Positions 4,463 to 16,972 of a stretch of 18,378 bases of DNA are shown here, piece by piece; positions within the stretch are counted from its first letter, which is position 1, and each line of letters starts with the position of its first letter. Source of the stretch: Alphaproteobacteria bacterium UBA6411 (lineage in GTDB: Bacteria; Pseudomonadota; Alphaproteobacteria; CAAGCB01; CAG-977); NCBI GenBank assembly GCA_002438565.1, contig DJPN01000015.1:14308-32685 (forward strand), in the 5' to 3' direction. Under the pieces are notes generated by a model. The model searched no databases. It saw only the letters and a program-made list of their open reading frames with translations, and had not been told where the DNA came from. The position numbers and the translations under genes are program-made.

Positions 4463-5371
4463 ATGGATAACAACAACCGAATTTCTCTGACGTCAGGCGC
4501 TTTTCGCGCCGTCGTTTCCCCGTCAACGGGCGGCTCTTTGCTGGCGTGGCAAAAAACGCAGGCCGACAGCGAAACCGTCGATTTGATGCGCACCGCCCTG
4601 CCCGAAGCCGTTGAAGAGCGCGCCGCCGACAAAACCGCAATGTTTCCGCTGGTGCCGTATTCCAACCGTATCCGCGGGGGATACTTTATTTATTGGGGCA
4701 TCCGGCGCACCGTTCCGAAAAACCATCCCGTCGTTCCCGATCCTTTGCACGGCGAAGGCTGGCAAACGGCGTGGGATGTCGTTGACGCGGCCGAAAATTC
4801 GGCAACGCTTGCTTTCGACCACAACGGAAAAAGCGGCTTTCCGTTCGCTTACCGCGCCGAAGAATCGTTCAAGCTGCAGGACAATCAGCTGATTGTAACG
4901 CTGAAGCTGACCAACAAAGGCGGCATCCCGATGCCGTGCGGTCTGGGCGTGCATCCTTTCTTTCCGAAAGACGACGACACAATCGTGCGCTTTAAAAATA
5001 AAACCGTGTGGGCGCACGAAGCCGCCCCCGCGCGCGAAAAACCGATTAAAGCCCCGCCCGAATGGCAGTTTGAAAAAGGGCTGAAAATTTCCGATTTGGA
5101 ATTGGACACCTGTTTCGGCGGTTTTGACGGCAAAGCGGAAATCGTTTGGGAATCGCGCAAACGCAAAATTGACATCACGGCGTACAGCGATTTCGGACAT
5201 GTCGTGGTATGGTCTCCCGCCGGCGAAAACTTTTTCTGCGTCGAACCCGTAACCAACGCGAACGACGCGTTCAATCTGGCTTCGCGCGGCGTGGCGGGAA
5301 CGGGCATCAAAACGCTTGCTCCGTCGGAAAGCCTGCGCGAAACGATTACTTTCACGGCCAGCGAATTGTAA
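4463..5371 (+). CDS. aldose 1-epimerase family protein
   Basis: ATG 4463 is preceded by AAGAGGA. The motifs PLVPYSNRI, HGEGW, GLGVHPFF and FCVEPVTNANDAFN match the mutarotase-fold aldose 1-epimerase family. Confidence 0.8.
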   Translation: MDNNNRISLTSGAFRAVVSPSTGGSLLAWQKTQADSETVDLMRTALPEAVEERAADKTAMFPLVPYSNRIRGGYFIYWGIRRTVPKNHPVVPDPLHGEGWQTAWDVVDAAENSATLAFDHNGKSGFPFAYRAEESFKLQDNQLIVTLKLTNKGGIPMPCGLGVHPFFPKDDDTIVRFKNKTVWAHEAAPAREKPIKAPPEWQFEKGLKISDLELDTCFGGFDGKAEIVWESRKRKIDITAYSDFGHVVVWSPAGENFFCVEPVTNANDAFNLASRGVAGTGIKTLAPSESLRETITFTASEL

Positions 5372-5381
5372 GGAGTCATCC

Positions 5382-6803
5382 ATGAAGCAAATGCACTTTA
5401 CCAAAATTGTTTCCACTTTGGGTCCCGCGTCCGGTTCGCCCGAAATCATCAAAGCTTTGGCCAAAGCCGGCGTCAACGTGTTCCGGTTGAACTTTTCGCA
5501 CGGCTCGCACGAAACACACCGCCAAAACGTCGCCTACATCCGTCAAGCCGAAAAGGAAATCGGCCGCCCGCTGGCGATTTTGTGCGACATGCAGGGACCT
5601 AAACTGCGTATCGGCGTTTTCAAAGACGACTACATCGAATTGCATATCGGCGACAAGTTCCGTTTGGACATGTCCCCCGAACCCGGCGACAAAACCCGCG
5701 TCTGCCTGCCTCATCCCGAGATTTTCCAAGCCATGACGAACGGCATGGATTTGCTGCTGAACGACGGACTGGTGCATTTGCGCGTTGACGCCTTCGGCAA
5801 AGATTTCGCCGATACGACCGTTATCAGCGGCGGCCGCCTGTCCAACAAAAAAGGCGTCAACGTCCCCGGCGTTCCTCTGCCGATTGACGCGCTGACGGAA
5901 AAGGACAAAAGCGATTTGCAGGCGGCTTTGGACATGGGGGCGGACATGATCGGCCTGTCTTTTGTTCAGCGCCCCGAAGATTTGCTGCTGGCGCGTTCTT
6001 TAATCAACGGGCGCGCGTGGATTGTTTCCAAAATCGAAAAACCCGCGGCGTTGGAACATTTGGATGAAATCATCCGCTTGTCCGACGGCATCATGGTTGC
6101 GCGCGGCGATTTGGGCGTGGAAGTCCCGCCCGAAAAAGTCCCCGTTTTGCAAAAGAAAATCATCCGCGCCTGCCGCAAAGGCGGAAAACCCGTTATCGTC
6201 GCGACGCAGATGCTGGAATCCATGGTTGCAAACCCGACTCCGACCCGCGCGGAAGCGTCCGACGTCGCAACAGCCGTTTTCGACGCCGCCGACGCGGTCA
6301 TGCTGTCCGCCGAAACGGCGGCGGGGGCGTATCCCGTCGAAGCGGTCACCATTATGAATAAAATCATCATGGAAACCGAATCGCACGATTTGTACCGTCA
6401 ATATCTGGACGCGGCGCGGCTGAAGCCCGAACACACGCCCGAACACGCGATTACGGCGTCCGCCCGCGTCATGGCGGAAACGATGGAAGACGCCGCGGCG
6501 ATTGTGTCCTACACCATCAGCGGCGCGACGGCGGGGCGTGTATCGCGCGAACGGCCGTACATTCCCGTCATGTGCTTGACGCCCGACGAATCGGTCGCCC
6601 GTAAAATGAGCCTGTTCTGGGGCATCGAAAGCGTTACTTGCGAACCGCAGGATCTGCTGGTCGACGTTGCGCGCATCGCCGCCTGCAACTGCCGCAAAGT
6701 CTTTAATGCGAAAGTCGGCGACAAAATCATCATCACGGCGGGACTGCCGTTTAACATCACGGGCAACACGAACCTGTTGCACGTTTACACAATCGCCGAA
6801 TAA
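5382..6803 (+). CDS. pyk: pyruvate kinase
   Basis: ATG 5382 is preceded by AGGAG. Motifs TKIVSTLGPAS, NVFRLNFSHG, MQGPKLRIG, KIEKPAA, MVARGDLGVE, VIVATQMLESM and AVMLSAETA are diagnostic of pyruvate kinase. Confidence 0.96.
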   Translation: MKQMHFTKIVSTLGPASGSPEIIKALAKAGVNVFRLNFSHGSHETHRQNVAYIRQAEKEIGRPLAILCDMQGPKLRIGVFKDDYIELHIGDKFRLDMSPEPGDKTRVCLPHPEIFQAMTNGMDLLLNDGLVHLRVDAFGKDFADTTVISGGRLSNKKGVNVPGVPLPIDALTEKDKSDLQAALDMGADMIGLSFVQRPEDLLLARSLINGRAWIVSKIEKPAALEHLDEIIRLSDGIMVARGDLGVEVPPEKVPVLQKKIIRACRKGGKPVIVATQMLESMVANPTPTRAEASDVATAVFDAADAVMLSAETAAGAYPVEAVTIMNKIIMETESHDLYRQYLDAARLKPEHTPEHAITASARVMAETMEDAAAIVSYTISGATAGRVSRERPYIPVMCLTPDESVARKMSLFWGIESVTCEPQDLLVDVARIAACNCRKVFNAKVGDKIIITAGLPFNITGNTNLLHVYTIAE

Positions 6804-10365: not shown

Positions 10366-11496
10366 TCAATTCTCCACTTTTTTGATTTCCAGGCTAAGGA
10401 TGATTTCTGTTTTGTCGTTGGTATTGGATTTAGAGCCGAAGAAGTCGGGGAGGAAGGACAAGCCGGCTTTTGAACCCGTGTTTTTGGTTTCGTTCAGACC
10501 GCCGAGGATGACGGTTTCGCCGTCGTTTGCGGTGATTGTGGTTTTGATTTCCCGCTTGGTCAAAGTGGGCGAGCCGTTGACCCCGTTTGCGGTTTCCCCG
10601 AAGTTGCTCATTTCCTGCCGGACGGTCAGCGTGATGCTGTTTTCGTAGATTTCGGGCGTCAGTTCGAATATCAGACCGCTTGAGCGGTAAACGACCGACT
10701 GGACGGGCTGTCCGTCCTGATACGTCACGCTGCCGAGCGTCGGAACGTCCGCGCCGACCGTCAAAGTCGCCGTTTTGTTCGCCTGTATCCTCAAGCTCGG
10801 TTCGCTAATCAGTTTAAAGCGGTCGTCCTTGTCCAATGCGCTAAAGTAAGCGTTGACGTGGCTGTCCTTGAACGACAAAAAATTGACCAGCCGGCTGCCC
10901 GAACTGACGGCAAGCCCCGCGTTTTTGAACACGTCCGCGATGATGCTCAGACTGCTTGCGTCCGTTGTCTTTTTGCTGACCTCGTAGATTTTGCCCCGCA
11001 CGACCAATTCGGCAGGTTTTGTATCGAACGTTTTGAGAATTTTCCGCAGCTTTGCCGTTTCCGCCTTTGCGCCTTTAAAGACAATCTGCCGTTCGTCCCC
11101 CGCAAACTGCCCCGCGAACATTCCGCCCAAAGCCTGCCGCAGCTGTGCCACGGACTTATGTTTCGGCGCGTACACGACAAAATCCAAGTCCTCGACCTTG
11201 TCCGCTTTGCCGATGTAATCGACCCCGTTCCTCGTTTCGACCTTATAGCCCATGGACGACAAAAACGCCGCCAGTTTCTTTTTGTCGCGGAAGTCGTAAA
11301 CCCGTATGTTGACCGTCCGTTCGTCCGTGACGACTTCCGGTTCAAGCACGTAATCCGTCCCCAGCGTTTCCTGATAGACGGTCCTCAAAAACGCGCTGAT
11401 TTTGATATTGTCGAATGACAAACTTGTCAGCGGCGCGTTCGTTTCGGCGGGGGCGGCTATCAGCAAAACCGCAAGGCAAAGAATCAACTTTTTCAT
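10366..11496 (-). CDS. secretin, filamentous-phage pIV-like export channel
   Basis: Signal peptide MKKLILCLAVLLIAAPAETNA. The C-terminal secretin domain reads VGADVPTLGSVTY...SSGLIFELTPEI...TLTKREIKTTITANDGETVILGGL...LSFLPDFFG. The start overlaps the Zot stop (ATGA). Confidence 0.88.
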   Translation of the reverse strand: MKKLILCLAVLLIAAPAETNAPLTSLSFDNIKISAFLRTVYQETLGTDYVLEPEVVTDERTVNIRVYDFRDKKKLAAFLSSMGYKVETRNGVDYIGKADKVEDLDFVVYAPKHKSVAQLRQALGGMFAGQFAGDERQIVFKGAKAETAKLRKILKTFDTKPAELVVRGKIYEVSKKTTDASSLSIIADVFKNAGLAVSSGSRLVNFLSFKDSHVNAYFSALDKDDRFKLISEPSLRIQANKTATLTVGADVPTLGSVTYQDGQPVQSVVYRSSGLIFELTPEIYENSITLTVRQEMSNFGETANGVNGSPTLTKREIKTTITANDGETVILGGLNETKNTGSKAGLSFLPDFFGSKSNTNDKTEIILSLEIKKVEN

Positions 11497-12813: not shown

Positions 12814-14577
12814 CTATGCTTTCAAAAACACGAACAGCGCGGCGATTGCCCATATCACCGAACACACGGATTTCAGCAAATCCCGATGTTGCTCCAGCAA
12901 ATCGCAATGGCTTTCGATGACGTATTCCTTGCCCCAAAGCTCAAAAGTCGGGCGATAACATGCGCTTTCGTGGTCAGGAACTTGGTAATTTTGAAGCGCG
13001 GGGAACAGGTCGAATATCGGCTGCAGTATCGCCGACGCTTCCACGGGTTCAAGTGTCGGTTCCGCCGCTTCCGGGTATTGTCCCAAGTCCAGATTGACGT
13101 TCACGTCAACGTCGATGTTGCCGTCCTTGACTGTTCCCGTGCTGTTTCCCGTTCCCTCGACCTTGCCCGCGTCGACGTTCGGCGACGTGTTCTTTATCGG
13201 GTCTTTCACGCCGTCCGTGTCGGGGTTTGTCGGCGTTTCCGTCAAGCTTCCCGTCGACGTGTCCGTTTTCAATCCCGTTCCGGGGCGCACGCCCGAACCG
13301 CTCGCCGTGTCGACTATCGTTTCCCGCGCGTCCCCGATTGTCGGCAGGTTCGGCGCAAGCTTTTTCACATCCTCCGCCGTCAGTTTCTTGCTTTCGTCAT
13401 ACGGCAAGCCGTCGTATCCCTCGGCGGATGTCGCGTCCTTATAAAGCTTGTTGACCGCGTCCGCGACAAACTGCGCGGGCAGTTCGTTTTCCAGCGTTTT
13501 GGAATCAAGCCCTTTCAGATACTCCGTCAAAGGCTGATTGAGCGTTTTTGTACTTGTCCCGTTCAGCTTGTCCGCCGCTATTTTGTTGATGTTCGGGCTG
13601 TTCAGCGTTTCCTTGTCGGTATAACTGCTTAACCATTCCGCCACGTTCTCACAGTAGTAGTTGTAGGCAAACTGTCCGTCGCCGCAATACTCCAAAAACG
13701 CCCCGCGGTGCATATAAATAAGAATGTATCCCGTTTGCTCTTCCGTTCCGTCCTTGGACAAGTATCTGACTTCCGCCAAATACCCTTGAAACACTTTTTT
13801 CGTATGGTCGTACTGACTTTCATAATCCCAATACGGCTTCAGTTCGCCCGTAAAGTAAAACGATTCCACCGACACGTCGCCGTTGTACAGTTTAAGCGTG
13901 TTGTATCCGTTGTTTTTATAGTTTGAATCGCCGTAGAATTTCGCCTGCAGATACTTTTGCGCTTCCGCGACCGTCCAAAACACGCCGTCTTGCGCATACT
14001 TTGTAATTCCCCAACCCGAACCCTCAAAGTCCGTTGTAATCTTGCCCGTTGTTTGCGGGTCGCCTTGTTCAAAATTATACGTTACTTCCGTTCCGTCGCC
14101 TTTGACGTAACTTCCGCTTTTTACCGCCGTCGGCAAACTCGCGACTGCTTCAACCGTATAAACGGCGTTTGTGATCGTTTGTGTCGTCGTTTCGACGACG
14201 GGCACTTCGTCGTTTTCCGTTTCTTCCGTCGCGACGATGATTTCCCCGCTGTCGTCCTTGGCCAGCCAAACCTTGATTTTTTCCCCGAGCTTCAGCAGGT
14301 AATTCCCCGCAACGTCCGTAATCAAATATCCCGCCAGCAGATACAGCCATGACACGGGACCGCCGAACACCGCCGTTGCCGCTGTCGCCGCCGTCGAAAG
14401 AACCGTGCTCGACCCCGTCACCAGTCGCAAACACCTGTTGTCGTTCGCGGGTATCGGCGCGCAGATTTTGGTTACCCCGCGCGACACGATTTGACGAACC
14501 GCCGCCGCTTGGAACGACGCCCATGCGCTCGATGTCAGCAGGCAAACGATGACAAATACGGCAACGACCTTACGCAT
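12814..14577 (-). CDS. pIII-like adsorption / minor coat protein
   Basis: 587 aa with an N-terminal signal peptide (MRKVVAVFVIVCLLTSSAWA). A low-complexity Gly/Thr/Asp/Pro linker (ASGSGVRPGTGLKTDTSTGSLTETPTNPDTDG...) precedes the C-terminal domain. The C-terminal membrane anchor is VCSVIWAIAALFVFLKA. It is the largest gene and sits downstream of the major coat gene. Confidence 0.65.
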   Translation of the reverse strand: MRKVVAVFVIVCLLTSSAWASFQAAAVRQIVSRGVTKICAPIPANDNRCLRLVTGSSTVLSTAATAATAVFGGPVSWLYLLAGYLITDVAGNYLLKLGEKIKVWLAKDDSGEIIVATEETENDEVPVVETTTQTITNAVYTVEAVASLPTAVKSGSYVKGDGTEVTYNFEQGDPQTTGKITTDFEGSGWGITKYAQDGVFWTVAEAQKYLQAKFYGDSNYKNNGYNTLKLYNGDVSVESFYFTGELKPYWDYESQYDHTKKVFQGYLAEVRYLSKDGTEEQTGYILIYMHRGAFLEYCGDGQFAYNYYCENVAEWLSSYTDKETLNSPNINKIAADKLNGTSTKTLNQPLTEYLKGLDSKTLENELPAQFVADAVNKLYKDATSAEGYDGLPYDESKKLTAEDVKKLAPNLPTIGDARETIVDTASGSGVRPGTGLKTDTSTGSLTETPTNPDTDGVKDPIKNTSPNVDAGKVEGTGNSTGTVKDGNIDVDVNVNLDLGQYPEAAEPTLEPVEASAILQPIFDLFPALQNYQVPDHESACYRPTFELWGKEYVIESHCDLLEQHRDLLKSVCSVIWAIAALFVFLKA

Positions 14578-14653
14578 CCAAGCCTTTCACCGCCGCCCAT
14601 CCGCAGCAGATGCCCAATGCAAAAAAACACAAATACCACCATTCAACCAGCAT
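14570..14653 (-). CDS. 27-aa hydrophobic ORF between the major coat and pIII-like genes
   Basis: Below the ORF-track cutoff as an independent start. GAAAGGGG lies 7 nt upstream of ATG 14653. The product is MLVEWWYLCFFALGICCGWAAVKGLDA. Its stop overlaps the pIII-like start by 8 nt. The size and hydrophobicity are reminiscent of the pVII/pIX class. Confidence 0.35.
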   Translation of the reverse strand: MLVEWWYLCFFALGICCGWAAVKGLDA

Positions 14654-14742: not shown

Positions 14743-14991
14743 TTAACCGCGGAACATGCTGAACAGTTTGCGAACGCCCCACACCAGGACCAACAAACCC
14801 ATAATCACGCCCGCAGCGTACAAGATGCCGCCTTTCGCGTCCGACACGTCAATCGCTTTCGCCATATCGGTCAAGGTCGTTGCGGTGGTTCCGCCCGCCG
14901 GATCTTCCGCGTGCGCCGCCCCCGCCATGAACGTCGATGCCGCTACCGCGGTCATTGCCAGTTTGTTTTTCAGATTTTCCAATTTAACCAT
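14743..14991 (-). CDS. major coat protein (pVIII-like) precursor
   Basis: The signal peptide is MVKLENLKNKLAMTAVAASTFMAGAAHA|E. The 54-aa mature part has an acidic N-terminus (EDPAGG), a hydrophobic core (ILYAAGVIMGLLVLVWGV) and a basic C-terminus (RKLFSMFRG), the canonical inovirus coat architecture. Confidence 0.78.
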   Translation of the reverse strand: MVKLENLKNKLAMTAVAASTFMAGAAHAEDPAGGTTATTLTDMAKAIDVSDAKGGILYAAGVIMGLLVLVWGVRKLFSMFRG

Positions 14992-15050
14992 TTTTCTTTT
15001 CCTTTGTTTGTTTTTCCCCGGATTCGCGTCCGGTCCGCTTCCCGCTTCTT

Positions 15051-15677
15051 TCAGCGGAAACTTTTCATCACTTTCTTTGCTCCGAACGCCAATATCGCAA
15101 CTGCCAGCATCGTTCCCGCGCCGTACAAAACCGCATCCGTAGCGTCCGCCAAGCTCAATCCCTCAACCATTCCCGTCAAACTTTCCGTTTTCGTCGGCGG
15201 TGTCCAGTTCGCCAAATCCCTGTTCGCGTATTCGCGCTGCAAATAATCAACCTCCAGACGACCATCAACCAACCATTTTCCGTTGGAATACACACCTACA
15301 TTTAAAAGTGTCTGCCGAACCCAATCGCCGTCGAGATTGTTTAAGCAAGTGCGCGCTCCTTTAGAAGGCCCGTCAAAACATCGTGGGTCTGTCGCGGCCT
15401 TGTAAAATAAACTGTTTGGATGTTCTTCAACTTCAGATTTGGGAACTCGCCGGTTTATTGCCGATAGTTCAAACTCATAGTCCGGCATTTCCGGCGATAT
15501 TTGATAATTCCGATCCGAAAAACACGAAACTTGCGCGCAAAAATCACCGGAATATATGCCCTCGTATAGAGCTTTCACAGTCGCATCGTCCGCTCCTGAA
15601 ATATTAAAATCGCTGGAAAGCGTATACTTTGAATCTCGCCCCTTAAGGTTGATTAACAGTCCCGCGTAATCGGTCAT
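15051..15677 (-). CDS. 208-aa protein with a C-terminal major-coat-like domain fused to a ~165-aa Cys-containing N-terminal domain
   Basis: The last 43 aa (SLTGMVEGLSLADATDAVLYGAGTMLAVAILAFGAKKVMKSFR) align without gaps to the mature coat protein of 14743-14991, with 14 of 43 identical. The hydrophobic core and basic tail are in the same positions. The start has an ATGA overlap with the upstream gene. No N-terminal signal peptide is evident. Confidence 0.6.
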   Translation of the reverse strand: MTDYAGLLINLKGRDSKYTLSSDFNISGADDATVKALYEGIYSGDFCAQVSCFSDRNYQISPEMPDYEFELSAINRRVPKSEVEEHPNSLFYKAATDPRCFDGPSKGARTCLNNLDGDWVRQTLLNVGVYSNGKWLVDGRLEVDYLQREYANRDLANWTPPTKTESLTGMVEGLSLADATDAVLYGAGTMLAVAILAFGAKKVMKSFR

Positions 15678-15910
15678 TCTTTAATCTCCGCCTTGAACAG
15701 CCGGATCATCGCCCCCGCGCCCGCCGCTATCAGATAACAGCACAGCACGGGACCGAACCCCGCCGCGAAAAACTCCGCTGCCGTTGACGCGTCAAAGATC
15801 GTCGGATCGCTCGAATATATATACCCCTCGACAAGCTTTAGCCCTTGTCCCTCCGGGCATATCCCCAATTCGTCCGACAGTCCTTCGACACACGTCAACA
15901 CCCGCTGCAT
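15674..15910 (-). CDS. 78-aa protein with a coat-like C-terminal TM segment (possible minor coat protein)
   Basis: The C-terminus DASTAAEFFAAGFGPVLCCYLIAAGAGAMIRLFKAEIKE shares the D-A...[FY]-A-A-G...hydrophobic...R-x-F-K pattern with the two downstream coat-like genes. It lies 3 nt after the upstream gene. Confidence 0.5.
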   Translation of the reverse strand: MQRVLTCVEGLSDELGICPEGQGLKLVEGYIYSSDPTIFDASTAAEFFAAGFGPVLCCYLIAAGAGAMIRLFKAEIKE

Positions 15911-15913
15911 CGC

Positions 15914-16231
15914 TTACAGCTCCGCCTTGAATTCCGCCACTTTTCGCAAATCGGCAATCCGCCCGTACAGCTTGTTGCCTTTGCCCTCGACGTATTCGAT
16001 TTTTGCGTCGTAATATCCCGGCGTCACTCCCGCAACCATTTGCGCCTTTTCGTTCATGAACGATGTTTCCGCGCTCACAAACCCGTTGCCCTTGTCACCC
16101 TGCGGACGCGCTTCCAAGTAGTTCAGTTTCCGCCCGAACACTTTTTCACCCGTCCCTTTGTCCACAAAGTCAAACACGTCCACGCCCGTCACCAATATCC
16201 GCTTCGTCCGCGTCATCCCGTTTTCACTCAT
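15914..16231 (-). CDS. putative ssDNA-binding protein (gV-like; by size and position only)
   Basis: 105 aa, soluble, with a beta-rich-looking Gly/Lys/Val composition. It lies between the replication module and the coat genes, where inoviruses place gV. AGGAAG RBS. No motif-level support. Confidence 0.4.
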   Translation of the reverse strand: MSENGMTRTKRILVTGVDVFDFVDKGTGEKVFGRKLNYLEARPQGDKGNGFVSAETSFMNEKAQMVAGVTPGYYDAKIEYVEGKGNKLYGRIADLRKVAEFKAEL

Positions 16232-16327: not shown

Positions 16328-16585
16328 TCACAAATACTTGTTTCGTATAGCGTCCCGCCGCGAAATCTCGGCTTTCAAAGACGCGATTTTCTTGTCTGCC
16401 GCCCTTATTTGCTTGTCCTTAGCCCTTATTTGCTTGTCCTTAGCCCGTAGTTCAAACATCCCGGCAATCAACCGCCAGCCTCTGATAACCAGCAAAATCG
16501 TTAAAATACAACTTGCCGCCAGCAATATCGCCGTCGTCACGTCTTCCATGTGCATGCTTGCCAATACCGTTTCTGTTAAGTTCAT
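16328..16585 (-). CDS. 85-aa TM plus coiled-coil protein with an internal heptad duplication
   Basis: An N-terminal TM (AILLAASCILTILLVI) is followed by RAKDKQI-RAKDKQI-RAADKKI, encoded by the 21-bp tandem repeat at 16401-16446. Confidence 0.5.
   Translation of the reverse strand: MNLTETVLASMHMEDVTTAILLAASCILTILLVIRGWRLIAGMFELRAKDKQIRAKDKQIRAADKKIASLKAEISRRDAIRNKYL
16401..16446. repeat. 21-bp in-frame tandem repeat (about 2.2 copies)
   Basis: GCCCTTATTTGCTTGTCCTTA occurs at 16401-16421 and again, identical, at 16422-16442, followed by a partial GCCCG. A degenerate copy lies just upstream (CTTGTCTGCC). Confidence 0.9.
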
Positions 16586-16588
16586 TTC

Positions 16589-16972
16589 TTAAAACCTTTC
16601 AAAACTGTAGCTTTTCAGCTCGTAATTCGACGACCTCGCGTAACTTTTAAAGCCGTTTCCCGACAGCGTTTTGCGGTATGACCACATATCCGCCGCCCGT
16701 TCCCGTCGCTCCAGCTTGTCAAGTTGTCGTTCCTTGTAAGCCAGATACCGCTCCGAATACGCCCGTTTGCGCGCTTGATACGCTTCCCGTTCCGCCCGCG
16801 CTTTCTTCTTTGCCGCCTTGTCCCTCGCCTTTTTGTCCGCGTCAAACAAAGCCATTATCGCGACAAATCCGAACAGCAGTATTTGCACAAACGACAGCTG
16901 TTTCGCCGTTTCCAGCAACGCCGAAATCACATCCGGCACCGCTTGCGCGATTATGTCACCTAAGCTCATCAT
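16589..16972 (-). CDS. 127-aa TM protein with a highly charged Lys/Arg/Glu-rich C-terminal region
   Basis: TM segment FVQILLFGFVAIMALF, then KKARDKAAKKKARAEREAYQARKRAY... The start (ATGATGA) overlaps the Rep stop. No family recognised. Confidence 0.5.
   Translation of the reverse strand: MMSLGDIIAQAVPDVISALLETAKQLSFVQILLFGFVAIMALFDADKKARDKAAKKKARAEREAYQARKRAYSERYLAYKERQLDKLERRERAADMWSYRKTLSGNGFKSYARSSNYELKSYSFERF

What the first reader, a model, noticed from the sequence alone, without database searches (positions are those of the whole stretch)
14743..15910. Three tandem genes share a major-coat-like C-terminal module, including a 208-aa coat fusion with no signal peptide
The 82-aa gene is a textbook pVIII precursor. 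The upstream 208-aa protein ends in a 43-aa segment that aligns without gaps to the mature coat, with 14 of 43 identical (LT-M, DA, LY-AG, L, G, K, FR). The hydrophobic core and basic tail are in register. The 78-aa protein upstream of that ends with DA...FFAAG...hydrophobic...IRLFK. The 208-aa protein thus carries a ~165-aa domain with four Cys (FCAQVSC, RCFDG, RTCLNN) in the position of the coat's surface-exposed N-terminus, like a natural phage-display fusion. An even Cys count suggests an exported, disulfide-bonded domain, yet no N-terminal signal peptide is visible. How it crosses the membrane is unclear, as is whether it is incorporated along the filament or at a tip.
Basis: seen in the sequence. 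Interest (0 to 1): 0.6.

Follow-up and report, generated by a model that had tools for sequence, protein, structure and literature searches.

The report
Coat-derived display protein of a filamentous prophage
A filamentous prophage of a gut bacterium carries an optional 208-residue protein made of an unknown, swappable 160-residue domain fused, with no export signal, to a diverged copy of the phage's own coat protein; it looks like a natural version of laboratory "phage display", but whether it sits on the particle is untested.

Summary
All three ORFs exist as described. The last 48 residues of the 208-aa protein are truly homologous to the mature major coat: 15/47 identical without gaps, z 9-12 against composition-preserving shuffles, hhalign 97.5% (E 5e-12). 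They are closer still (21-23 of 42-46) to the coat of a related phage.

The 78-aa protein is not coat-like by any test. The third coat-like module in this phage is instead the N-terminus of the 85-aa gene at 16328-16585 (hhalign 56%, E 1e-4).

The 160-aa N-domain:
- folds confidently (pLDDT about 90) but has no sequence or fold relative;
- is acidic, with exactly four Cys in all seven known members;
- has no signal peptide and no possible upstream start.

The gene is accessory. The slot between the p78-type gene and the coat gene is empty in some relatives. In others it holds an unrelated Cys-rich protein of the same design. The p78-type gene and a 27-aa ORF are kept in every relative in which that position was read.

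Best reading (about 0.5): a signal-less protein with its N-terminus outside the inner membrane, assembled at low copy into the virion through its coat-derived helix. The main rival is a cell-resident periplasmic protein.

The scan noted a similar coat-anchored design, with a signal peptide, in another gut inovirus (e1-705422).

The parts
15051..15677 (-). p208 gene: the accessory protein made of an orphan domain plus a coat-derived helix. Its ATG overlaps the p78 stop (ATGA).
   Evidence: ORF. Seven homologues, all from metagenomes, with conserved neighbours. N-domain dN/dS is 0.2-0.35.
15198..15677 (-). N-domain, residues 1-160. Acidic (pI 4.7), four invariant Cys arranged CxxxxC and Cx6-10C, no signal peptide.
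15054..15197 (-). C-module, residues 161-208: a diverged copy of a mature major coat protein, with amphipathic acidic segment, hydrophobic core and a KK-K-R tail.
   Evidence: In the tree it forms one clade (100/100) nested within the coat proteins, on a long stem of 0.95.
14743..14991 (-). Major coat protein pVIII precursor: 28-aa signal peptide plus 54-aa mature protein.
   Evidence: PHROG 2186 at E 1.5e-11. Conserved in all related loci.
15674..15910 (-). p78: a signal-less small protein with a beta-hairpin holding two invariant Cys (C7, C18) and one long helix. It is not coat-like. It is kept in all lineages read and is a candidate tip protein of the pVII/pIX kind.
   Evidence: Similarity tests fail. 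Family alignment. Model has strands 2-9 and 22-29 and helix 41-77. Present in loci that lack p208. PHROG 3679 at E 1e-6.
16328..16585 (-). p85: an N-terminal coat-like helix without a signal peptide, followed by a C-terminal heptad-repeat tail. This is the likely third coat-derived module in the phage.
   Evidence: Pfam Phage_Coat_B at E 0.029. z 3.6-5.5 against five coat types. The coat profile hits it in the own genome at E 0.0047. hhalign 55.6%, E 1.2e-4, in register to the C-terminal end. A 57-aa variant occurs in L020.
14570..14653 (-). 27-aa hydrophobic ORF overlapping the pIII start. It was found in all six loci read at this position (the window, L001, L003, L010, L015, L017); in L026 the same peptide is the end of a 72-aa open frame. 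Candidate second tip protein.
   Evidence: The pattern is M-x3-WW/F-Y-x2-FF-x-x-G-x2-C-x-WAVVKGL(D/N)A.
15914..16231 (-). gV-sized gene (105 aa) upstream of p78. It marks the canonical gV-(VII-IX)-VIII position.
   Evidence: Gene order is conserved in the relatives.
12814..14577 (-). pIII-like adsorption protein (587 aa) with a signal peptide and a C-terminal anchor.
   Evidence: PHROG 7187 at E 2e-41. Its middle domain is swapped in L003.

Best explanation
p208 is an optional structural accessory of this inovirus.

Shown:
- Its last 48 residues descend from a major coat protein of this phage group.
- Its first 160 residues are a separately evolving orphan domain that has been exchanged as a cassette.
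- It has no signal peptide.
- Its gene is translationally coupled to p78 and lies in a slot that other lineages leave empty or fill with a different protein of the same design.

Inferred:
- The coat-derived helix inserts into the inner membrane as coat and tip proteins do, with the basic tail in the cytoplasm. The acidic N-domain is carried across without a leader, by a YidC-type route possibly helped by Sec.
- The two Cys pairs form local disulfides in the periplasm.
- Because the module keeps the coat's amphipathic segment, core and DNA-facing basic tail in register, it is taken into the growing filament beside pVIII at low copy and displays the N-domain on the particle.
- The most likely place is the leading end, next to p78 and the 27-aa protein. 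Coat N-termini point that way, and a 160-residue domain would meet the least steric hindrance there in the secretin.
- The N-domain would then bind something outside the cell, or on the next host, and its exchange between phages would change that specificity.
For: - **Homology of the module.**. The family profile finds a 78-aa signal-peptide coat protein (P0010) at E 1.2e-5 among 1.84 billion representatives. Identity to P0010 is 21/42 to 23/46, against 15/47 to the resident coat. The tree gives a single origin inside the coat diversity. Nine of the 18 residues invariant in the coat alignment are identical in the module and five more are conservative.
- **Topology cues.** Four acidic residues lie before the helix and four basic residues after it. 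The N-domain has pI 4.3-4.7, and every member has exactly four Cys whose second pair varies in spacing (6, 8 or 10 residues between). The host has three DsbA-type genes and YidC.
- **A real, selected protein.** N-domain dN/dS is 0.2-0.35 and the model has pLDDT about 90.
- **Accessory slot.** It is empty in L010-L012. It holds an unrelated protein of 179-182 aa with eight conserved Cys, no signal peptide and a C-terminal helix with basic tail in L015, L016 and L026. The p78-type gene is present in every relative read, and the 27-aa ORF in each one read at its position.
- **Coupling to p78.** The ATGA overlap is present in all seven loci.
- **Cassette exchange.** N-domain dS is saturated where p78, the C-module and pVIII have dS 0.2-0.5.
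- **Experimental precedent.** In M13, pVII and pIX lack signal sequences, and folded scFv and scTCR domains are displayed on them without any leader (PMC3044770, PMC5155289). pIX insertion uses YidC and tolerates N-terminal extensions (PMC3193035). pVIII N-termini point to the pVII/pIX end (PMC10175506).
Against:
- The C-module is less constrained than the true coat. Median pairwise dN/dS is about 0.5, against about 0.15 for pVIII (only 48 codons, so noisy). That fits a low-copy or anchor role better than a lattice role.
- AlphaFold gives the module pLDDT below 50.
- Moving a 160-residue N-terminal domain across the membrane without a leader is unusual. In the M13 experiments signal-less display was low.
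- Only 3-6 linker residues separate the domain from the helix.
- The four Cys could instead bind a metal in the cytoplasm.
- The family is tiny (7 sequences), so covariation tests are impossible.
Confidence: 0.5

Rival explanations
1. p208 is a cell-resident inner-membrane protein. It uses the coat-derived helix only as a leaderless membrane anchor or to reach the assembly site. Its periplasmic N-domain acts in the producing cell, for example by blocking a receptor or co-receptor for superinfection exclusion or by modulating the envelope, and it is not packaged.
For: The gene is optional. The N-domain is exchanged as a cassette independently of the pIII receptor-domain type. The C-module has relaxed dN/dS relative to pVIII. 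From general knowledge of Ff phages, periplasmic pIII domains confer exclusion.
Against: A mere anchor would not need to keep the coat's amphipathic surface segment and the spacing of its basic tail in register over 47 columns. The tight coupling to the conserved p78 and the position inside the structural block also point to the particle.
Confidence: 0.28
2. The N-domain stays in the cytoplasm. The four Cys form a metal site, and the protein is tail-anchored at the assembly site as a morphogenesis or DNA-handling factor.
For: No signal peptide is present. A 160-residue domain predicted to fold well could fold before export. GST fused to pIX aggregated in the cytosol (cited in PMC5155289).
Against: The charge distribution around the helix (-4 before, +4 after) and the homology to coat proteins of known orientation argue for the N-terminus outside. 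The Cys spacing (4, then a variable 6-10) is unlike the usual CxxC knuckles. The N-domain is acidic, like virion surfaces.
Confidence: 0.1
3. p208 is this phage's essential pIX or pVII equivalent, the leading-tip cap protein, simply enlarged.
For: The gene sits between the gV-like gene and the coat gene, has no signal peptide, and is coupled to the preceding small gene as gene IX is in Ff (PMC10175506).
Against: Closely related phages with the same p73-78, coat, pIII, pVI, Zot and secretin genes lack it entirely (L010-L012). Two other small hydrophobic proteins, the p78 type and the 27-aa ORF, recur in the related loci read and can fill the two tip roles.
Confidence: 0.07
4. The similarity to the coat is only the shared composition of two membrane helices.
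For: Single-pass helices with basic tails often look alike, and the p78 case shows this.
Against: z is 9-12 against segment-preserving shuffles. hhalign gives 97.5%. There is a database-wide hit to another phage's coat. The match extends 19 residues into the non-hydrophobic segment (LT-M, DA).
Confidence: 0.01

Closest known systems
Major coat protein pVIII of this inovirus group (PHROG 2186 / 6548 type; functional analogue of Ff pVIII)
   Same: The C-terminal 48 residues are homologous to the mature coat, with amphipathic acidic segment, hydrophobic core and basic tail in the same register.
   Different: There is no cleavable signal peptide. The first six or so mature residues are replaced by a 160-residue folded domain. 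The module sits on a long branch with relaxed constraint. The gene is optional.
Ff (M13/f1/fd) tip proteins pVII and pIX, and engineered signal-sequence-independent pVII/pIX display (PMC3044770, PMC5155289, PMC3193035, PMC10175506)
   Same: The gene lies between the ssDNA-binding-protein gene and the coat gene and is translationally coupled to its neighbour. The protein has no signal peptide and a predicted N-terminus-out single helix. The engineered fusions show that a folded domain can reach the virion this way.
   Different: pVII and pIX are 32-33 residues long, essential and not coat paralogues. No sequence similarity to them was found (the Pfam scan found nothing). Here the fusion is natural and optional.
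Engineered hybrid ('type 88' / '8+8') pVIII display, in which a second gene VIII copy carries a foreign domain beside wild-type gene VIII (own knowledge of phage-display practice)
   Same: There are two coat-type genes in one genome, one wild type and one carrying a large N-terminal domain. Low-copy incorporation is expected.
   Different: Engineered versions keep the signal peptide. Here it is absent and the coat copy has diverged (32% identity to the resident coat).
Ff pIII adsorption protein
   Same: Variable N-terminal domains that are swapped between phages, attached to a C-terminal membrane and virion anchor (for this phage's own pIII).
   Different: pIII has a signal peptide, its anchor is not coat-derived, and it sits at the trailing end with pVI. 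This phage has its own separate pIII (587 aa).
Earlier scan note e1-705422: a coat-anchored receptor-type module in another gut filamentous prophage
   Same: An extra protein that ends in a copy of the phage's coat helix.
   Different: That one is reported to carry a signal peptide and a pIII-like receptor domain. This one has neither. I did not examine that locus.

Membership tests
Inovirus major coat protein (pVIII, PHROG 2186 type) | Sequence homology of the mature part | tested here: met
   hhalign 97.5%, E 5e-12. The coat profile hits the module at E 1.2e-8. Nested in the coat tree.
Inovirus major coat protein (pVIII, PHROG 2186 type) | Cleavable N-terminal signal peptide (for this coat type) | tested here: not met
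   No hydrophobic N-terminal stretch, and a stop two codons upstream of the ATG.
Inovirus major coat protein (pVIII, PHROG 2186 type) | Small size (about 45-55 residues when mature), allowing close helical packing in every lattice position | tested here: not met
   208 residues, with a 160-residue folded domain.
Inovirus major coat protein (pVIII, PHROG 2186 type) | Present in every genome of the group (essential) | tested here: not met
   Absent from L010-L012. Among 28 genomes of the order it was found only in G000.
Inovirus major coat protein (pVIII, PHROG 2186 type) | Physical presence in the virion | not testable with these tools
   Needs proteomics or immuno-EM.
Ff-type leading-tip proteins pVII/pIX | Gene between the ssDNA-binding-protein gene and the coat gene, coupled to its neighbour | tested here: met
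   The ATGA overlap is conserved.
Ff-type leading-tip proteins pVII/pIX | About 30-residue single hydrophobic helix without a signal peptide | tested here: not met
   No signal peptide, but 208 residues with a globular domain.
Ff-type leading-tip proteins pVII/pIX | Essential and conserved in all relatives | tested here: not met
   The slot is empty or differently filled in relatives.
Ff-type leading-tip proteins pVII/pIX | Sequence similarity to Ff pVII or pIX | tested here: not met
   No Pfam hit at E <= 0.1 and no relevant PHROG hit.
   z -0.25 and p 0.58 against the coat. hhalign 0.25% and 6%.

The most novel reading that the evidence does not exclude
This group of gut inoviruses has a natural, leaderless phage-display system. 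A recombination slot just after the conserved p78 gene accepts interchangeable orphan domains: at least three diverged forms of type A and an unrelated Cys-rich type B. Each is attached to a C-terminal coat-type helix that carries a folded domain of 150-160 residues across the inner membrane without a signal peptide and mounts it on the leading end of the filament. This would give the particle a second, exchangeable binding function besides pIII.
Probability: 0.3. Interest if true: 0.75.

Novelty: new variant of a known kind. Interest (0 to 1): 0.58.

Why it matters
Filamentous phages are the basis of phage display. Even so, I found no description of a natural phage protein that consists of a foreign-looking domain fused to a copy of the major coat (paper searches; the library is limited).

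If p208 is on the particle, three things follow:
- Nature already uses hybrid-coat display.
- Inovirus particles can carry a second, swappable ligand.
- A large N-terminal domain can be exported without a leader through a coat-type helix, which bears on how YidC- or Sec-dependent translocation of N-terminal tails is limited by size.

If it is not on the particle, it is a coat mimic acting in the cell, which would be a new kind of accessory function for these phages.

Either way the N-domain is a confident orphan fold worth solving.

Tried and rejected
- **Upstream or alternative start supplying a signal peptide: rejected.** In the window a stop lies two codons before the ATG. In relatives the possible 22-residue GTG extension is not hydrophobic.
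- **Internal start at Met169 giving a 40-residue pIX-like peptide: rejected.** That Met is Ile or Leu in four of the seven relatives.
- **Frameshift fusion of p78 with p208: not pursued.** I saw no typical slippery heptamer in the overlap region when reading it and ran no motif search; p78 has no signal peptide either.
- **Relatives of the N-domain: none found.**
  - Pfam, PHROGs and PDB sequences.
  - 1.84 billion representatives. The 695-aa repeat protein P0009 matches a 45-residue stretch 12 times and looks spurious.
  - An HMM against all ORFs of the fetched loci, including the pIII proteins.
- **Scans of viral contigs and genome contigs:** no relatives. The annotated phage collection gave no match for p208 and only marginal ones for p78 and pVIII.
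- **Other N-domains on the same C-module:** none. A region-restricted search found only family members.
- **Coat-fusion proteins elsewhere in the class:** of the hits outside G000, one is an ordinary ~83-aa coat-sized frame in a same-family genome (G003, E 2.3e-8) and six are weak (E 0.001-0.01). The four of those six I opened (L031, L033, L034, L035) are transporters, a flagellar hook protein and the like.
- **Type B slot protein against the coat:** not significant (0.16%). Against p208, a weak match in the C-terminal 56 columns (22%, E 1e-3) that I treat as suggestive only.

Full report
**Setting**

The right half of the window is an inovirus-type prophage on the minus strand. Its gene order is:
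- rolling-circle Rep, 16969 to beyond 18378;
- a 127-aa membrane and coiled-coil protein;
- an 85-aa protein;
- a gV-sized 105-aa protein, 15914-16231;
- p78, 15674-15910;
- p208, 15051-15677;
- the signal-peptide coat pVIII, 14743-14991 (PHROG 2186, E 1.5e-11);
- a 27-aa hydrophobic ORF, 14570-14653;
- a 587-aa pIII-like protein;
- a DUF2523 pVI-like protein;
- Zot/pI;
- a 376-aa ORF at 10366-11496, in the position where the relatives have a Pfam Secretin gene.

The finding therefore lies exactly where Ff phages have genes VII and IX.

All three ORFs and the quoted motifs are present.

The C-terminus of p208 aligns without gaps to the mature coat, with 15 identities in 47-48 columns. The score of 89 lies 9-12 standard deviations above shuffles that preserve the composition of the amphipathic, hydrophobic and basic segments. 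None of 5000 shuffles reach it. Further support:
- Profile-profile comparison of the two families gives 97.5% probability, E 5e-12, over 47 columns.
- A search of the host genome with p208 finds the coat gene (E 8e-4).
- A coat profile finds the p208 module (E 1.2e-8).
- A profile of the p208 family, run against 1.84 billion representative proteins, retrieves a 78-aa signal-peptide coat protein of another phage (P0010, E 1.2e-5).

The match covers mature coat residues about 7-53, so nearly the whole mature coat is present. Of the 18 residues invariant in my coat alignment, 9 are identical and 5 conservative in the module.

The p78 protein does not share the module. Its score equals that of shuffles (z -0.25 against the coat, p 0.03 against p208), and hhalign gives 0.25% and 6%. 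Its conserved part is the N-terminal 45 residues, with invariant C7 and C18, not the helix. The model shows a beta-hairpin followed by one long helix.

The third coat-like module of this phage is instead the N-terminus of p85:
- Pfam Phage_Coat_B at E 0.029;
- z 3.6-5.5 against five coat types;
- the coat profile at E 0.0047 in the genome;
- hhalign 55.6%, E 1.2e-4, in register to the very end of the coat.

**What is p208?**

The family is very small. Seven full-length members and one fragment were found, all from metagenomes or MAGs. None is in the phage, viral-contig or species-genome collections. Among 28 genomes of the host's order, only this one has it. All members show the same neighbourhood, p78 then p197-210 then pVIII, with the ATGA overlap to p78.

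The N-domain (residues 1-160):
- is under purifying selection (dN/dS 0.2-0.35);
- folds with pLDDT about 90 from only seven sequences;
- has no detectable relative by sequence or fold.

It is acidic (pI 4.3-4.7), has no hydrophobic stretch, and has exactly four Cys in every member. They are arranged as CxxxxC plus a second pair whose spacing varies (6, 8 or 10 residues between). In the window a stop two codons upstream excludes a longer N-terminus.

**Origin and evolution**

The module is more similar to coats of related phages (21/42 to 23/46 identities with P0010) than to the resident coat (15/47). In a tree of 13 coats and 7 modules, the modules form one clade (100/100) inside the coat diversity, on a long stem of 0.95. 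This indicates a single capture or duplication of a coat gene followed by fast change.

Between phage backbones whose p78, module and pVIII differ by dS 0.2-0.5, the N-domain is saturated at synonymous sites (dN 0.5-0.8). The N-domain has therefore been exchanged as a cassette, and I count three types. These types assort independently of the variable middle domain of pIII.

The module itself is less constrained than the true coat. Median pairwise dN/dS is about 0.5 against 0.15. With only 48 codons this is noisy.

**The slot is variable, so p208 is accessory**

Relatives share p73-78, coat, pIII, pVI, Zot and (where the contig reaches that far) secretin genes. In the six loci where I read the stretch before pIII, the 27-aa ORF is there too; in L026 the same peptide ends a 72-aa open frame. 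These relatives differ in what lies between p73-78 and the coat gene:
- nothing, only a 72-nt spacer (L010-L012);
- only a p127-like gene (L013, L014);
- an unrelated 179-182-aa protein (L015, L016, L026; cut short to 103 aa in L017).

This third protein has eight invariant Cys and no signal peptide. It ends in a hydrophobic helix with a basic tail and is also tightly coupled to p73-74. It is not significantly coat-like. It shows only a weak match to the last 56 columns of p208 (22%, E 1e-3).

The p78 type and the 27-aa ORF recur across these lineages. They are the better candidates for the two essential leading-tip proteins.

**Mechanism**

Shown: the chimeric architecture, the lack of a leader, the optional status, the coupling to p78 and the cassette exchange.

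Inferred:
- Orientation is N-terminus outside. The coat homology, the -4/+4 charge split around the helix, the acidic N-domain and the even, locally paired Cys all point that way. The host has DsbA-type genes and YidC.
- Leaderless export has experimental precedent in M13. pVII and pIX have no signal sequence (PMC10175506). pIX uses YidC and tolerates N-terminal extensions (PMC3193035). scFv and scTCR domains are displayed on pVII and pIX without any leader, though at low level (PMC3044770, PMC5155289).
- From my own knowledge, E. coli ProW translocates an N-terminal tail of about 100 residues without a signal peptide. I could not confirm that in the library.
- Because the module keeps the coat's surface segment and the spacing of its basic tail, I think co-assembly with pVIII is the likeliest use. 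It would be at low copy and probably at the leading end beside p78, since pVIII N-termini point to that end (PMC10175506).

I put this at about 0.5. The main rival, at about 0.28, is a periplasmic protein that stays in the cell, for instance for exclusion, and uses the coat helix only for insertion or targeting. The relaxed constraint on the module fits that rival.

**Comparison and novelty**

p208 works like an engineered hybrid-coat or pIX display fusion. It fails the membership tests for a major coat (no leader, large size, not universal) and for pVII/pIX (size, not universal, no similarity).

I found no description of a natural coat-fusion protein. I did not check that note.

I class this as a new variant of a known kind.

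Noticed in passing
window 16328-16585 (-): The p85 protein starts with a coat-like helix that lacks a signal peptide and aligns in register with the coat's C-terminal end. It then continues for about 40 residues as a KDKQIRA heptad-repeat tail. A coat-like helix extended on its DNA-facing side should not fit a virion, so this may be an assembly or exclusion factor. The gene is missing at this position in L001 and L003. L020 has a 57-aa form with fewer repeats.
   Followed up: partly
window 14570-14653 (-); L001 4398-4481; L003 5516-5599; L010 5621-5704; L015 ~5999-6082; L017 4894-4977: A 27-aa Trp/Phe-rich ORF overlapping the pIII start occurs in all six loci read at this position, with the pattern M-x3-WW/F-Y-x2-FF-x-x-G-x2-C-x-WAVVKGL(D/N)A; in L026 the same peptide ends a 72-aa open frame. 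Together with the p78 type it is a good candidate for the pVII/pIX-type tip pair.
   Followed up: partly
L015 4684-5223; L016 620-1159; L026 2129-2677 (-); L017 4025-4336 (cut short): There is a second, unrelated kind of slot protein. It is 179-182 aa long with eight invariant Cys (including CNCCxxGxC), no signal peptide, and a C-terminal helix with a basic tail. It occupies the same place after the p73-74 gene.
   Followed up: partly
window 16589-16972 (-); L013 5228-5629; L015 ~5226-5590; L026 1795-2139 (-): The p127-type gene (an N-terminal membrane helix plus a basic Arg/Glu-rich coiled coil) changes position between lineages. In the window it lies between Rep and gV. In L013, L015 and L026 it lies between the slot and the coat gene.
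   Followed up: no
L001 2823-3137: In L001 the gV-sized gene is replaced by a 104-aa protein with no obvious similarity to the 105-aa one of the window, while the flanking genes stay closely related. This looks like a replacement of the presumed ssDNA-binding protein by an unrelated gene.
   Followed up: no
L003 5592-7382 compared with window 12814-14577: The middle 240 or so residues of pIII are only about 30% identical in L003, while both ends are 76-100% identical. The presumed receptor-binding domain appears to have been swapped, independently of the p208 N-domain type.
   Followed up: partly
P0009 (695 aa, from the representative library): A highly repetitive protein matches residues 100-145 of the p208 profile 12 times (repeat YCLKNIxGEWRRP...). 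It is probably a spurious low-complexity or repeat hit. Its origin is unknown.
   Followed up: no
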